Shown: positions 31,609 to 57,303, numbered from the stretch's first letter. The stretch: 64,000 nucleotides of DNA from Candidatus Poribacteria bacterium (GCA_965215265.1 OZ244048.1:1600001-1664000); one strand, 5' to 3'. The notes: generated by a model not told the origin, from the sequence alone. Numbers and translations: made by a program.

Positions 31609-32610
31609 CTAACTGTTATAACCTAACTGTGCCATTGTGTTATGGAAAATGAGAGCCAGTTTTGGATGCATATCAAACGGAGCACGAGCAGGCACCGGAT
31701 GTAACGTTTCACAAGCATAATCCAGAAATCCTTTGTCTTCCGGTAGTTCGCAGAAGGCACATAACTTTGAAAGCGTTTCGTCAGGCTGTGTTGCCAATTC
31801 CTCAAAACGGAGCATGTGGACACAATCCGGTAAGGTGTCTATTAAACGGCACCCCTCCTGCATTGTTACTATCCATTCTACGGTAGCTCTGTCCAAATGT
31901 CGATCCATTTTTGCGATTTCTTCAGATATGTTGCTGAAATCAACATTTCCGGCGATAAGTTGTTTTACCAGGAGTTTCCATTTCCTGTCATTCACGCCCC
32001 ACCAATCATGGGTTTCACCCTTGACGCTCACAGCCAACCGTTCCGACCAGGCGGCAATAGAGTGACACGTATCCCATCCGTTGCGCACTAGAAAAATAAA
32101 ACGTGCATCTGAAAAAAGGGCTCTTACAAAATCTACTCTGAAAATAAGTTCGGGATACTTGTCAACCACCCGTTGTGAAAATGTACTGGCTAAATACGCA
32201 CCGAACAATCGATGCGCCCGTTCACACATTTCGGGTGTGGCATCTTCAGAGACAAGGCGATATGTGGCGTGCGCTTGGCTGTAGTTGCCGATGATGTCCT
32301 CGTGTGGATGGATGAGGTGCCATATCGCTTTCGGTTCATTCAGATACCCGACCTGCCGATGCATCGATAACACAATCCCTAAAATAGTCGAGCCACTGCG
32401 CCCTGTTCCCAAAATAAAAATAGGTTTTTTAACCCGTTTAAATCGTACCCGACTCGCGTCGACAACTTTTAGCAGAGAAAAGACGAACGGATTTATCCAA
32501 CGTCCCTTTGTAGTGACAGGCCTCCCTTCAAAAAGTGCATAACTGATGAGACGAGCCAGTACCTTTGTCGGACGCGTTTTGATATAAAGAGGATTCATTT
32601 GAGCTATCAT
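31609..32610 (-). CDS. Sulfotransferase
   Basis: PIFILGTGRSGST (5'-PSB), FLVRNGWD (3'-PB), LRFEEL. Confidence 0.9.
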   Translation of the reverse strand: MIAQMNPLYIKTRPTKVLARLISYALFEGRPVTTKGRWINPFVFSLLKVVDASRVRFKRVKKPIFILGTGRSGSTILGIVLSMHRQVGYLNEPKAIWHLIHPHEDIIGNYSQAHATYRLVSEDATPEMCERAHRLFGAYLASTFSQRVVDKYPELIFRVDFVRALFSDARFIFLVRNGWDTCHSIAAWSERLAVSVKGETHDWWGVNDRKWKLLVKQLIAGNVDFSNISEEIAKMDRHLDRATVEWIVTMQEGCRLIDTLPDCVHMLRFEELATQPDETLSKLCAFCELPEDKGFLDYACETLHPVPARAPFDMHPKLALIFHNTMAQLGYNS

Positions 32611-32611
32611 A

Positions 32612-32930
32612 TTTTTGTATATTTCAGTTTTTGTATATTTCAGTTTTTGTATATTTCAGCCCTGTAACGCCTTAGGTTGTGTCAAATACTGTGAAAATCT
32701 CGTCTGAGTTCTTCTATGTTTTTAGTGTCTCTGATTGTATATTTCAGCCCCATCAAGGGTTATGTTTTTTCGTATATCTCCGTCCCATAAAGGTTTATGT
32801 TTTGTTAAATCCGATGTACATCTCGTGGCAGGTTAGGTATTCTTTATCTCTCCGTCAGGAGAGATAAGATTACCTTATCCTGCCAATCTATAGATACATC
32901 TCGTTGGAGCCCTTCGTTGTTTTGAATCAA
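32612..32930 (-). repeat. Family A cluster: 3x16-bp terminal repeat, further A units and nested B (32825-32894)
   Basis: (TTTTTGTATATTTCAG)x3 at 32612-32659; B is flanked by the direct repeat TACATCTCGT (32817-32826, 32895-32904). Confidence 0.93.
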
Positions 32931-34012
32931 AAACGCGGAGTGCTCGTCGAGGCAGCACAACGGCCCCTGCCAAATCGCCTTTTGAGCGTTTCGCGAATAT
33001 TCTTCATTCTGTCAAGGTTGAAGAGAAATGCCAAGCCTAATTTAATTGGAAAGGAAAACAGATCAAGTGCCAGTTTTATACGGTTTGGCCGGATGGAAAC
33101 CGAACTGTAGTTATGTTTTCTCATAACGGTTGCATTGAGCACTTGGCATAGGTAGATTTCAGCTGAACTGAGTCCATCTTTAGAGGCAGTGCTCTGCCAA
33201 CTGTTGGCTCGATCTGGATTTATCCCGAGTTGCTGCACATTATCTGCATTAACAGAAGATCCGACTTGGGGCACTTGAAGTAGTGTATCAGTATAAATAA
33301 TACCAACAAAATCACAAACTTGGCGAACAGTTGTTTCAGGATGCGCGAGAAGTTTCTCAAAGTAAATTGATAGAACCCGTTTACTGTCCACAAACCTATC
33401 GGCAGTCGTGACAGCAGTACGCCAGATTCGACTAATTGTTATCGGGTGATAATTAATCCAATCACGGAGCGTTTCTTTCATAGGCATATCGGTACCGCCA
33501 AGGAAGCGGCGTTTCCACTTCCGCTTCTGCGATAAAAGTACATCGCGCGGGTCACGTATCATGTTAATAATATGCGCTTCTGGATAAAGGCGAAGAATCT
33601 CATCAATGTAAAAGACATTACGCGGAGTCTGATCGCAGGGGATAGTTTTCTGATGCTCTGATGCCTCGTAAGAAAGAAACGCAAAAAAGAGGGCCGCCGG
33701 CGTTTCAGGAAATTCACACAATGCATCAAGGAAGGTCCGGGCGTTTTGTCTGTAACCACGTGGGTGAGCATGTGTCCGGTAGCCCTCCCGTTGAATGCAG
33801 AATAACTGTGAAGCCAATTCCTCTGCCGTCTTGTGAGATAACAAATTAGAGGCGGTTGTGGCTGAACATAACTGTCCGAAGAAATGGAGTTCCCCAAACG
33901 TATAAATCTCCGGATGTTTGCCCAAAATCCGTCCCATCATGGTTGTGCCGCTTCGGCTATTCCCTACCACAAATAGGATCTTATTTTGTTTTTTCGTATA
34001 TTTCAGTACCAT
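32927..34012 (-). CDS. Sulfotransferase
   Basis: LFVVGNSRSGTT, DQTPRN, MIRDPRDVLLS; start codon lies within a family A repeat. Confidence 0.92.
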   Translation of the reverse strand: MVLKYTKKQNKILFVVGNSRSGTTMMGRILGKHPEIYTFGELHFFGQLCSATTASNLLSHKTAEELASQLFCIQREGYRTHAHPRGYRQNARTFLDALCEFPETPAALFFAFLSYEASEHQKTIPCDQTPRNVFYIDEILRLYPEAHIINMIRDPRDVLLSQKRKWKRRFLGGTDMPMKETLRDWINYHPITISRIWRTAVTTADRFVDSKRVLSIYFEKLLAHPETTVRQVCDFVGIIYTDTLLQVPQVGSSVNADNVQQLGINPDRANSWQSTASKDGLSSAEIYLCQVLNATVMRKHNYSSVSIRPNRIKLALDLFSFPIKLGLAFLFNLDRMKNIRETLKRRFGRGRCAASTSTPRF

Positions 34013-55835: not shown

Positions 55836-55861
55836 AAAAATAACGGATAGAAAGGCAATCG

Positions 55862-55947
55862 ATGATTCATAACCTAGAATAGCTCTGGTGAGATTTACAC
55901 GGTAATAAACATAACATCAGGCGTTATAGGGCTGAAGGATACAAAAA
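55862..55947 (+). repeat. Family A half-element abutting the transporter start codon
   Basis: CTCTGGTGAGATTTACAC...GGGCTGAAGGATACAAAAA-ATG. Confidence 0.85.
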
Positions 55948-57303
55948 ATGGAATTTAAAAATAAAGCAACTCAGATTAACTTATTCAGTTTAAAGACGGT
56001 TCAGATGCGTGCATTTCACATGACATGGTTTGCATTCTTCTTAGCCTTTTTCGGGTGGTTCGGCATCGCGCCGCTGATGGCAATTGTACGCGAAGATCTG
56101 ATGTTAACCAAGGTCCAAATCGGGAACACGATTATCGCTTCTGTCTCCATTACAGTCATCGTGCGTATCTTGATCGGTCCGTTGTGCGACCGTATCGGCG
56201 CTCGAAAGGCGTACACATGGCTCCTCATCCTCGGTTCGCTTCCTGTAATGGGGATTGGGCTTGCCCAAAACTATAAGAGCTTCCTCTTGTTTAGATTGGC
56301 AATCGGTGCCATCGGTGCAGCGTTTGTGATTACGCAGTATCACACCTCTGTAATGTTCGCGCCAAATTGTGTGGGGACAGCGAACGCAACAACCGCCGGA
56401 TGGGGAAACTTAGGGGGTGGGGTAACGCAGATGGTGATGCCACTTATCTTTACCGCACTGGTGACGTTCGGTGTCGATAAATTCCTCGGATGGCGGCTCG
56501 CAATGATTATTCCGGGCATCGCGTTGTTCCTGACAGGATTTGCTTACTATTTCTTTATGCAAGACGCACCGGATGGCAACTACAAGGCGCTGCGCGCACG
56601 AGGGGAACTTGAACCCGCCAAAGGTAGAGGCATGCAATCCTTTATGCTGGCGATTAAGGACTACCGGGTTTGGGCACTCTTTGTGATTTATGCTGCCTGT
56701 TTCGGGGTTGAACTCACGATAAACAATGTTGCCGCCCTCTATTATCACGATAGGTTTCAGTTAGATGTGAAAACCGCCGGGTTAATCGCTGGATTATTCG
56801 GATTGATGAATATCTTCGCCCGCACTATCGGCGGGGCTTTCTCGGATTTTTTTGCGAAAAGGATGGGACTGAGAGGACGGGTGATATTCTTATTCGTTGT
56901 GCTAATCGGGGAAGGTATTACGTTGATGCTATTTTCGCATATGGCGGTTCTGGTGCTTGCGGTTGGCACAATGATTGTGTTCAGTCTATTTGTGCAGATG
57001 TCGGAGGGGGCTACCTACGGGATTGTTCCGTTTATTAACAAGAAAGCATTGGGTGCTGTCGCAGGTATTGTGGGTGCGGGAGGAAACGCTGGTGCTGTCG
57101 CGGCTGGTTTTCTTTTCCGGGCGGAGAACATCACGATGCAGCAAGCCTTGCTTTATCTTGGAGCGATGGTGGCTGTGGCTTCAATCGCGACGGTATTCGT
57201 GCGGTTTTCACCTGCAGTGCAGGCAGCCGAGAAAAAGGCTTATGAAGATGCACTTGCTGAGCGGCAACGTCTGAAGGCAGAAGCAGGTCGGATGGCTGCC
57301 TAA
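55948..57303 (+). CDS. MFS nitrate/nitrite transporter (NRT2/NrtP/NarK family)
   Basis: AFHMTWFAFF, ANATTAGWGNLGGG, Y..CFGVEL, GIVGAGGN nitrate-signature motifs. Confidence 0.95.
   Translation: MEFKNKATQINLFSLKTVQMRAFHMTWFAFFLAFFGWFGIAPLMAIVREDLMLTKVQIGNTIIASVSITVIVRILIGPLCDRIGARKAYTWLLILGSLPVMGIGLAQNYKSFLLFRLAIGAIGAAFVITQYHTSVMFAPNCVGTANATTAGWGNLGGGVTQMVMPLIFTALVTFGVDKFLGWRLAMIIPGIALFLTGFAYYFFMQDAPDGNYKALRARGELEPAKGRGMQSFMLAIKDYRVWALFVIYAACFGVELTINNVAALYYHDRFQLDVKTAGLIAGLFGLMNIFARTIGGAFSDFFAKRMGLRGRVIFLFVVLIGEGITLMLFSHMAVLVLAVGTMIVFSLFVQMSEGATYGIVPFINKKALGAVAGIVGAGGNAGAVAAGFLFRAENITMQQALLYLGAMVAVASIATVFVRFSPAVQAAEKKAYEDALAERQRLKAEAGRMAA

What the first reader, a model, noticed from the sequence alone, without database searches (positions are those of the whole stretch)
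32608..55950. Repeat termini sit directly on start codons and supply the ribosome-binding region
Seen: five genes have the A terminus 0-1 nt from the ATG: 32610 (..ATACAAAAAtATG), 41189 (..ATACAAAAAATG), 42494 (GGTACGGAGAGAGACGAAAAATG), 43760 (GGGACGGAGATATACGAAtATG) and 55948 (GGGCTGAAGGATACAAAAAATG). The terminus offers GGAG or AAGGA and an A-rich spacer, and no separate native RBS is visible. Inference: the element is a portable translation-initiation module, or it targets A-rich initiation regions and is tolerated because it replaces them.
Basis: partly seen in the sequence, partly recalled or inferred. Interest (0 to 1): 0.78.

Follow-up and report, generated by a model that had tools for sequence, protein, structure and literature searches.

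The report
Intergenic repeat ends replacing ribosome-binding regions
In this sponge-symbiont (Poribacteria) genome, the A-rich end of an abundant intergenic repeat sits directly against the true start codon of about sixty genes, several of them essential, in place of their original ribosome-binding region; this is a large new example of a rare, already known kind of repeat behaviour.

Summary
All five junctions read as quoted. Orthologues show that four of the five ATGs are the conserved starts; the fifth (43760) lies two codons upstream of the conserved one.

Genome-wide, 37 of 627 repeat termini have an ATG that opens an ORF of at least 100 codons at one exact offset. The background is 2.5 per offset. 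In a 5-nt window the count is 63, against 4.8 +/- 2.3 for random non-coding positions.

The element was found only in this genome among 31 searched. Two other genera gave weak, divergent matches.

In 17 pairs with the same-genus relative, a well-spaced Shine-Dalgarno occurs in 7 relatives but only 3 of the genes here. Ten genes here have only the repeat's GGAG, 11-14 nt upstream. GGAG-bearing arms abut starts three times as often as arms without it.

So the repeat end is the working initiation region by default. I found no evidence that it is a dedicated module: termini also crowd stop codons and native Shine-Dalgarno sites, and expression could not be tested.

The closest known cases are Neisseria REP2 and Borrelia IR repeats. 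Notes of this scan (AI notes, unchecked by me) describe the same kind of thing in two other Poribacteria genomes and in other phyla.

The parts
32611..32709 (-). B-type repeat arm (32643-32709) followed by two extra 16-nt copies of its terminal piece; the last one ends 1 nt before the ATG at 32610
31609..32610 (-). Sulfotransferase gene. Its ATG at 32610 is the conserved start (orthologues begin MIAQ.. in 4 of 4 relatives)
41190..41283 (-). A-type arm (41217-41283) plus a 27-nt B-type terminal fragment (41190-41216) that ends directly on the ATG at 41189. No SD-like 4-mer in the last 25 nt
39873..41189 (-). MurJ/MatE-type polysaccharide flippase gene. Start conserved with the same-genus relative (MAFY..)
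42495..42560 (-). Single A-type arm filling the whole 57-nt spacer between the glycosyltransferase and epimerase genes. Its 5' box holds the glycosyltransferase's TGA stop (42552-42554) and its 3' end abuts the ATG at 42494 (GGAG with an 11-nt spacer)
41499..42494 (-). NAD-dependent epimerase/dehydratase gene. The Pfam Epimerase domain starts at residue 6, and the start is conserved in 2 of 4 relatives (the other two align from residue 3)
43761..43854 (-). B-type arm (43788-43854) plus a 27-nt A-type terminal fragment (43761-43787) ending 1 nt before the ATG at 43760
42552..43760 (-). Group-1 glycosyltransferase gene. Orthologues start at the second ATG (43754), so the repeat-adjacent ATG is a possible 2-codon extension
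55881..55947 (+). B-type arm whose end reads GAAGGATAC instead of the usual GAAATATAC, which gives an AAGGA 8 nt before the ATG at 55948. The region around the start is predicted unpaired
55948..57303 (+). MFS transporter gene, called nitrate/nitrite-type from recall; only the Pfam MFS_1 match was tested. Start conserved in 8 relatives, which carry their own GGAG/AAGGA 6-8 nt upstream

Best explanation
A lineage-specific, mosaic, MITE/BIME-like repeat family has filled the intergenic spacers of this Candidatus Poribacteria genome.

What the element is. Arms are 61-67 nt long. They begin ..CGAGATTTACA and end ..ATA(T/G)AC-R-AAAA(A). They stand alone, in 61-nt tandem arrays, or as imperfect palindromes of about 155-190 nt.

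What is shown. At about 60 genes the conserved outer end stops 0-1 nt before the evolutionarily conserved ATG. The native start-proximal leader, including the Shine-Dalgarno that relatives still carry, has been pushed away or replaced.

What is inferred. For those genes the element's last ~20 nt is the translation initiation region. A-type arms give a GGAG 10-14 nt upstream plus an A-rich spacer that is predicted to be weakly structured. B-type arms give only the A-rich spacer. About half of this genome's genes appear to start without a well-placed SD anyway, so an A-rich spacer alone is plausible.

Why exactly at the ATG (inferred, least certain). Repeats insert, recombine and are trimmed until they meet a sequence under constraint: a start codon, a native SD or a stop codon. 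Selection then keeps only junctions that still initiate. Because the GGAG is already far from the ATG, only the closest possible register survives once the native SD is lost. That favours GGAG-bearing arms. This is tolerance and co-option of a selfish repeat, not a dedicated module.
For: Family and scale:
- 656 arm hits genome-wide.
- 107 inverted neighbouring pairs and many tandem pairs with a 61-nt period.
- Terminus conservation ends at +5/+6 after ATAC.

Enrichment: 37 of 627 termini at one offset against 2.53 background; 63 against 12.6 in five offsets; 63 against 4.8 +/- 2.3 for random non-coding positions.

True starts:
- 18 of 21 adjacent genes compared have the ATG at the orthologues' start.
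- dxr, gyrA, murC, map and efp match NCBIfam equivalogs from profile position 1-3.

Loss of the native SD:
- 0 of 63 have an SD 4-mer between terminus and ATG.
- In 17 G000/G001 pairs, an SD with a 4-10 nt spacer is present in 7 relatives against 3 here; 10 here have one only at 11-14 nt; 4 have none.
- At G000 3832820 the native AAAGG is kept on the far side of a 177-nt palindrome. At 4225765 the whole 46-nt native leader is gone while the promoter-like TTGTCA..TATAAT is kept.

The genome can use SDs: the 16S ends ..CACCTCCTTTCT. 45% of 2448 ATG genes outside repeats have an SD at 4-10 nt. The spacer peak is 7 (435), and spacer 12 still counts 102 against a tail of about 25.

Selection signal: A-type arms abut ATGs in 43 of 312 cases against 10 of 220 for B-type (odds ratio 3.4, P = 4e-4).

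Boundary-hugging in general:
- 28 stop codons of convergent genes lie 1-6 nt beyond a terminus.
- 19 of 44 ORF-ATGs at offsets 15-24 have a native SD directly after the terminal A-run.

Room was available: native spacers in the relative are mostly 33-162 nt.

Junction sequences are bridged by short-read contigs of 4 runs from one study; this may be the source sample, so it is not independent support.
Against: - No measurement of transcription or translation. No RNA run is listed, so use of these ATGs rests on conservation only.
- A GGAG with a 12-nt spacer is in the tail of the native distribution. B-type junctions have no SD at all.
- The spike is 5-10 times higher than neighbouring tolerated offsets. 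Uniform insertion plus a selection filter does not predict that on its own, so some site preference or directed trimming is needed.
- There is no real trough below background at offsets 8-12 (5, 5, 5, 2, 3 against 2.5).
- My gene calls come from a home-made ORF and codon-score finder, so counts that depend on them are approximate.
- The nearest relative is only about 80-87% identical in protein, so exact ancestral junctions cannot be reconstructed.
Confidence: 0.6

Rival explanations
1. Target-site preference. The machinery that spreads the element, or recombination through microhomology with its ATAC-A-run end, places termini preferentially in the A-tracts just 5' of start codons and just 5' of SDs. 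The adjacency is then mechanical, and the initiation function is only a tolerated by-product.
For: - The spike at one exact offset is 37 against about 5 at neighbouring offsets.
- The two docking registers (at the ATG and at the native SD) coincide with the two native A-rich tracts, at -6..-2 and -17..-14.
- ATAC(A/G)AAA-like strings lie just upstream of the orthologous ATG in relatives that lack the element: murC and the epimerase in the same-genus genome, and the sulfotransferase in another genus.
- The terminus motif is conserved across A-type and B-type arms and across the divergent arms of another genus, as expected for a recognition site.
Against: - No target-site duplication and no flank consensus in 30 isolated full elements or beyond position +7.
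- Orthologous sites in the relative are not unusually A-rich (3.41 against a genome mean of 3.29; 4 of 17 have 5 or more A).
- Generic non-coding A-runs precede gene starts in 4.2% of cases against about 10% for termini.
- 21 Poribacteria dxr loci show no such motif.
- Pattern counts in relatives are confounded by their own repeat families.
Confidence: 0.25
2. Hairpin loop-out. Where a full palindrome lies between a retained native SD and the ATG, the element folds into a long stem. This brings the native SD back to working distance, so the terminus itself supplies nothing.
For: At G000 3832820 the native AAAGG+CTA is kept directly 5' of a 177-nt palindrome whose other end is 1 nt from the ATG. 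The predicted fold pairs the two ends, leaving SD and AUG at the base of the stem. The mechanism is known from phage T4 genes (recalled, not checked here).
Against: - Only 16 of 63 adjacent termini have an inverted partner arm, no more than other termini (180 of 569; P = 0.39).
- The fold is no more stable than shuffles (z = -0.26).
- In other cases no native SD remains on the far side.
Confidence: 0.08
3. Outward promoter and leaderless mRNA. The TATAC(A) of the terminus acts as a -10 box, so transcription starts on the A of the abutting ATG. That would explain the exact register.
For: The register is exact: ATAC, 6 nt, then ATG in 37 cases. That spacing fits the distance from a -10 box to a transcription start (established knowledge of sigma-70 promoters).
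Against: - TATACA lacks the conserved final T.
- The consensus scan finds no promoter in the termini of 41100-44000: 3 hits elsewhere against 5.7 in shuffles.
- 1057 genes without an SD show no -10-like peak at -13..-7.
- Many adjacent genes lie inside operons downstream of same-strand genes.
Confidence: 0.04
4. Artefact of start calling. The adjacent ATGs are chance junction codons (terminal A plus TG) upstream of the real starts.
For: 3 of 21 compared genes (43760, G000 1546656 and 1548969) have the adjacent ATG upstream of the orthologous start. One ORF was counted twice.
Against: 18 of 21 starts coincide with the orthologues' starts. Equivalog profiles begin at residues 1-11. 37 of 48 junction ATGs open long ORFs, against about 25% for ATGs at other offsets.
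Confidence: 0.03

Closest known systems
Neisseria REP2 repeats and Borrelia plasmid IR-A/IR-B repeats (Delihas 2011, PMC3184786; I read the passages found by term search, not the primary papers by Parkhill 2000, Morelle 2003 and Dunn 1994)
   Same: A dispersed repeat lies immediately upstream of many unrelated ORFs and provides their ribosome-binding region. The repeat is fused to the translation start and forms part of the 5' UTR.
   Different: - REP2 is described as carrying a promoter and its own ATG, and as lacking terminal inverted repeats, with 23-26 copies per genome.
- Here the ATG belongs to the gene: only 48 of 627 termini are followed by ATG.
- No promoter was detected.
- The arms form inverted pairs and tandem arrays, there are more than 600 termini, and only about 10% sit on starts.
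Correia/NEMIS elements and other bacterial MITEs (as summarised in PMC3184786, same passages)
   Same: Small non-coding elements of about 150-190 nt with inverted ends, in hundreds of copies, intergenic, co-transcribed with neighbours and affecting their expression.
   Different: - Correia elements duplicate a TA target and carry promoters and an IHF site (recalled, plus the review passage).
- Here no duplication was seen in 30 isolated elements, and the two ends of one element are usually of different subtypes.
- Single arms and 61-nt tandem arrays are common.
- The known Correia effects are on transcription and RNA processing, not on replacing the SD.
BIMEs/REP clusters and REPINs mobilised by RAYT
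   Same: Mosaic clusters of short modules in alternating or tandem orientation that fill intergenic spacers, with no target duplication.
   Different: No Y1 transposase (PF01797) in this genome. Arms are 61-67 nt and AT-rich at the end, not 20-40-nt GC-rich hairpins. REPs are typically at gene 3' ends (recalled).
Rickettsia palindromic elements (in-frame repeat insertions)
   Same: Repeat modules of this genome also lie in frame inside an ORF (37641-38819), and they contribute N-terminal or C-terminal residues and stop codons.
   Different: That concerns coding insertions. The present finding concerns the non-coding junction at start codons.

Membership tests
MITE (non-autonomous IS derivative) | Terminal inverted repeats on a short element without an ORF | tested here: met
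   107 neighbouring inverted arm pairs. 59 of them have a 15-45-nt centre, and the 30 isolated ones measure 155-189 nt. The ends are imperfect and often of different subtypes.
MITE (non-autonomous IS derivative) | Target-site duplication flanking the element | tested here: not met
   No direct repeat seen by eye in the flanks of 30 isolated full elements. No consensus beyond the terminus.
MITE (non-autonomous IS derivative) | A parent IS with the same ends and a transposase in the genome | tested here: inconclusive
   Only 7 inverted arm pairs lie 500-3500 nt apart, each enclosing different ordinary-sized ORFs. I did not run these ORFs against Pfam.
REP/BIME-REPIN with RAYT | A Y1 (RAYT/IS200-type) transposase gene in the genome | tested here: not met
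   PF01797: 0 matches in G000, while the same search hit 6 of 14 control genomes.
REP/BIME-REPIN with RAYT | Mosaic clusters of modules in tandem or alternating orientation in intergenic DNA | tested here: met
   arrays of arms, fragments and other repeat families fill spacers of 150-570 nt.
REP2 / Borrelia IR type (repeat supplying expression signals) | Lies immediately upstream of ORFs | tested here: met
   63 of 627 termini lie within 2 nt of an ORF-opening ATG. 272 of 627 face a gene start.
REP2 / Borrelia IR type (repeat supplying expression signals) | Contains a ribosome-binding site | tested here: inconclusive
   A-type arms have GGAG 10-14 nt from the ATG, while the genome optimum is about 7. 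B-type arms have none. Function was not measured.
REP2 / Borrelia IR type (repeat supplying expression signals) | Contains its own ATG start codon | tested here: not met
   Conservation ends before the ATG. Only 48 of 627 termini are followed by ATG. The ATGs align with the orthologues' own starts.
REP2 / Borrelia IR type (repeat supplying expression signals) | Contains a promoter | tested here: inconclusive
   The consensus scan finds none in the termini of 41100-44000. Other promoter types were not covered, and there are no RNA data.
Known structured RNA leader (Rfam) | Match to a curated RNA family | tested here: not met
   0 matches at gathering score in the whole window.

The most novel reading that the evidence does not exclude
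The conserved ATA(T/G)AC-R-AAAA end, with the GGAG of A-type arms, is an evolved plug-in initiation cassette. It lets this repeat superfamily colonise the interval between SD and ATG, even of essential genes, without silencing them. In sponge-associated Poribacteria, selfish repeats would then repeatedly overwrite ribosome-binding regions across the genome. A divergent arm family with the same end exists in another genus, where one of three copies examined also abuts an ATG. Unchecked notes of this scan report the same kind of thing in two further Poribacteria genomes.
Probability: 0.2. Interest if true: 0.75.

Novelty: new variant of a known kind. Interest (0 to 1): 0.5.

Why it matters
About sixty genes of one bacterium, including gyrA, murC, dxr, map and efp, appear to have had their ribosome-binding regions overwritten by a single selfish repeat. 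If so, translation initiation signals in this lineage are far more replaceable than usually assumed. One sequence would then set the initiation strength of many unrelated genes, which is a possible route to coordinated change or drift in expression in a host-restricted symbiont.

There is also a practical point for annotation of Poribacteria genomes. Longest-ORF start calling often runs into the repeat: in my own calls, 44 of the 272 termini that face a gene start had the longest-ORF start 10 nt or more inside the arm. The repeats also alter C-termini and stop codons of upstream genes.

Tried and rejected
- RNA evidence. The look-up of sequencing runs listed no RNA holder, so nothing can be said on expression. 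The four DNA runs (one study) only confirmed the junction sequences; their many 'joints' are repeat cross-matches, and no empty-site variant was seen.
- Native ATACRAAA before ATG in relatives. The pattern is 2-7 times its reversed control in several family members. The control does not correct for A-rich leaders. In G025 the hits are an internal part of that genome's own repeat, not gene starts. I left this unresolved.
- Replication in another genome. A related arm family exists in G004 and G009, but a strict pattern finds only 3 copies in G004. That is too few for statistics.
- Palindrome bias. Adjacent termini are not depleted or enriched for inverted partners.
- Terminal fragments. Short GGAG-bearing fragments abut ATGs in 12 of 51 cases against 37 of 225 for full arms. 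I did not test this for significance, and my full/fragment split is crude.
- Leaderless signature. None found in genes without an SD.
- Parent IS. No multi-copy candidate found between distant arm pairs.
- RAYT. None found.
- Rfam. No match.
- Literature. Searches for Poribacteria with 'repeat' and 'intergenic', and for Poribacteria with 'transposable elements' and 'genome', gave nothing on such elements (listings only). The search for MITE, 'ribosome binding site', 'start codon' and 'bacteria' gave two papers. Of these I read passages of PMC3184786. Supplements were not consulted.
- A look-up of the arm sequence in the scan's own findings returned nothing.

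
Full report
THE OBSERVATION

Each ATG opens an ORF of 331-451 codons. Each ORF has a Pfam domain beginning near its N-terminus: sulfotransferase, MurJ/MatE-type flippase, NAD-dependent epimerase (domain from residue 6), group-1 glycosyltransferase and an MFS transporter. A 19-nt copy of the terminus occurs 12 times in the window with up to 3 mismatches, against 0.04 expected.

THE REPEAT

The window is bases 1,600,001-1,664,000 of a single-contig genome of 4,833,177 bases with 48.1% G+C. The nearest dxr relatives are all 'Candidatus Poribacteria' MAGs at 75-81% identity.

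The unit is an arm of 61-67 nt. It begins with ..CGAGATTTACA.. and ends with ..ATA(T/G)AC-R-AAAA(A). Conservation fades at +6/+7 after the C of ATAC. Two main end types exist. A-type reads ..GGTACGGAGATATAC... B-type reads ..GGGCTGAAATATAC.. or ..GGGCTCCTGTAGAC.. and has no GGAG.

A profile built from 17 window copies finds 656 arms genome-wide. Neighbouring arms are inverted in 107 cases, typically with a 23-43-nt centre, giving imperfect palindromes of 155-189 nt. They are in tandem in 171 cases, most of them overlapping by 6 nt, which gives a 61-nt period. Short terminal fragments of 16-28 nt also occur, stacked on other termini or on other repeat modules. This is the situation at 32610, 41189 and 43760.

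Classification tests:
- No target duplication in the flanks of 30 isolated full elements.
- No Y1/RAYT transposase in the genome.
- No obvious parent IS.
- No Rfam family in the window.

A 19-mer of the A-type end occurs 276 times in this genome and never in 30 relatives, including the same-genus genome. A sequence-only covariance model finds only weak, divergent arms in two other genera: 7 in G004 and 1 in G009.

IS THE ADJACENCY MORE THAN CHANCE?

I anchored 627 termini on the C of ATAC. An ATG starts at offset +7 in 48 of them, and 37 of these open an ORF of at least 100 codons. The mean for offsets 20-199 is 2.53 (sd 1.65, max 8), which gives Poisson P of about 5e-30. Offsets 5-9 sum to 63 against 12.6 expected. 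A mirrored control on the other side of the arm never exceeds 4. Random non-coding positions give 4.8 +/- 2.3, with a maximum of 13 in 300 replicates.

The 63 are 62 distinct ORFs with one paralogue pair. The count is a lower bound, because fragment-borne junctions such as 41189 and 32610 are not in my arm list.

By my crude gene calls, the 627 termini divide as follows:
- 272 face a gene start.
- 182 face a gene end.
- 118 are followed by another arm.
- 55 lie inside predicted genes.

ARE THESE THE TRUE STARTS?

I compared 21 adjacent genes with orthologues. For 18 the ATG sits at the orthologues' start. These are the MFS transporter, sulfotransferase, flippase, epimerase, dxr, murC and twelve others.

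Three do not coincide:
- The glycosyltransferase at 43760, whose orthologues start at the second ATG, 43754.
- Two genes elsewhere in which the adjacent ATG adds a 7-12-residue extension. One of these extensions is itself encoded by a terminal fragment.

The adjacent genes include dxr, gyrA, murC, map and efp. All match NCBIfam equivalogs from profile position 1-3.

WHAT HAPPENED TO THE NATIVE RIBOSOME-BINDING REGIONS?

The 16S rRNA ends with the usual CCUCC anti-SD. Among 2448 ATG genes outside repeats, 45% have an SD 4-mer with a 4-10-nt spacer. The spacer peak is at 7 (435 genes), spacer 12 still counts 102, and random positions score 5.5%. Native leaders are A-rich just before the ATG and just before the SD.

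None of the 63 adjacent genes has an SD between terminus and ATG. Their only SD-like 4-mer is the element's GGAG, starting mostly at -16, a 12-nt spacer.

In 17 pairs with the same-genus relative:
- A well-spaced SD is present in 7 relatives but only 3 genes here.
- 10 genes here have an SD only at 11-14 nt, and 4 have none.
- The A count in -8..-1 is 5.82 here against 3.41 in the relative. The genome mean is 3.29.

The relative's native spacers are mostly 33-162 nt, so adjacency is not forced by lack of room.

Two clear cases come:
- At G000 3832820 a 177-nt palindrome lies between a retained native AAAGG and the ATG.
- At G000 4225765 the whole 46-nt native leader is replaced, while the upstream promoter-like TTGTCA..TATAAT is kept.

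At the cdsA-dxr junction the element replaced a junction that is tight in the two nearest relatives, and it now supplies cdsA's last codons and stop. The arm at 42495-42560 likewise holds the glycosyltransferase's TGA.

Predicted folds leave the A-rich start region of the MFS gene unpaired. They show no structure beyond shuffles for the epimerase junction.

WHY EXACTLY AT THE ATG?

Four observations bear on this.
1. GGAG-bearing A-type arms abut ATGs in 43 of 312 cases, against 10 of 220 for B-type (odds ratio 3.4, P = 4e-4).
2. There is a second docking register. 19 of 44 ORF-ATGs at offsets 15-24 have a native SD directly after the terminal A-run.
3. Stop codons of convergent genes also crowd 1-6 nt beyond termini: 28 in six offsets against about 1 per offset elsewhere.
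4. The MFS-gene copy reads GAAGGATAC where the family reads GAAATATAC, creating an AAGGA 8 nt from the ATG.

Together these fit repeats that are inserted, recombined and trimmed until they meet constrained sequence. Selection then keeps junctions that still initiate. Because the element's GGAG is already distant, only the closest register works once the native SD is gone.

That alone does not predict a spike 5-10 times higher than neighbouring tolerated offsets, so some site preference is likely. Evidence bearing on a preference is mixed:
- The two docking registers coincide with the two native A-tracts.
- ATAC(A/G)AAA-like strings occur before the orthologous ATG of three genes in relatives that lack the element.
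- Against it, the relative's sites are not unusually A-rich.
- Generic non-coding A-runs precede gene starts in only 4.2% of cases.
- No flank consensus exists.
- Pattern counts in relatives are confounded by their own repeats.

The hairpin loop-out idea fits one locus, but adjacent termini are not enriched for inverted partners (16 of 63 against 180 of 569). An outward promoter giving leaderless mRNAs has no support.

COMPARISON WITH WHAT IS KNOWN

The review by Delihas (PMC3184786; passages read) describes Neisseria REP2 and Borrelia IR repeats. [quoted passage not shown] This is the closest functional precedent.

The present family differs in several ways:
- It has inverted and tandem arms.
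- It is some 25 times more numerous.
- It does not carry the ATG.
- It sits on starts with only about a tenth of its ends.

It resembles MITEs such as Correia elements in size and palindromy, but shows no target duplication. It resembles BIMEs in its mosaic clusters, but lacks a RAYT. I therefore file it under none of these families. It works like REP2 at the junctions concerned.

Earlier notes of this scan (AI notes, not evidence) reached a similar reading for three genes elsewhere in this genome. They also report the same kind of thing in two other Poribacteria genomes and in other phyla. By sequence the arm has no look-alike among those notes.

VERDICT

The repeat end is, by default, the initiation region of about sixty genes, but the evidence favours co-option of a boundary-hugging selfish repeat over a dedicated portable module. 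Nothing was measured at the RNA or protein level. I rate it a new variant of a known kind, of moderate interest.

Noticed in passing
window 37641-38819 (-), repeats at about 38360-38650: A sulfotransferase ORF stays open through about 290 nt of repeat modules. Residues of roughly 60-160 are repeat-encoded, while the Pfam domain spans residues 5-279. This looks like an in-frame repeat insertion of the Rickettsia-palindromic-element kind.
   Followed up: partly
window 41304-41348, 18773-18826, 23975-24040, 59546-59625 and others: A second, unrelated repeat family: TGGCAGGATAGGTATTCTT.. plus a GTCTCTCC..GGAGAGAC hairpin. It scores as terminator-like at 41328-41304 and is interleaved with the arms.
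   Followed up: no
window 2035-2118, inside ORF 1359-2297: Five or more tandem 12-nt units (AACAAGGTATAG-like) inside a coding frame (family D16).
   Followed up: no
G000:C1:1578932-1579485 and 4224178-4224623: Near-identical arms repeated at 122-nt and 160-nt periods, four and three or more copies respectively. This implies recent tandem amplification of composite units.
   Followed up: no
L024 (G001 murC), L029 (G001 epimerase), L045 (G002 sulfotransferase): the last 25 nt before the ATG: Relatives without the element carry ATAC(A/G)AAA-like strings just before the orthologous start codons. They may be a target motif, a relic or chance.
   Followed up: partly
L058-L070 (G025): Another Poribacteria genome has its own abundant repeat that contains ATACAAAAACATG internally. 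It is followed by a 7-codon ORF and not by a gene start.
   Followed up: partly
L049, L052, L054, L056 (G004); L050 (G009): A divergent arm family with the same 5' box and the same ATAGAC-A-run end exists in two other genera. One of three G004 termini examined is directly followed by an ATG, and one gene there may start at a GTG inside the arm.
   Followed up: partly
L014 (G000 cdsA-dxr junction); window 42552-42554: The element supplies the last codons and the stop codon of the upstream gene: cdsA ends in element sequence, and the glycosyltransferase's TGA lies in the arm's 5' box.
   Followed up: partly
window 34010-34012 and G000 924927 region: The ATG inside the arm's ..GATGGTAC.. is the longest-ORF start of some downstream genes, giving N-termini such as MV(L/R)(K/R)Y.. 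encoded by the terminus. Start callers will over-extend these genes.
   Followed up: no
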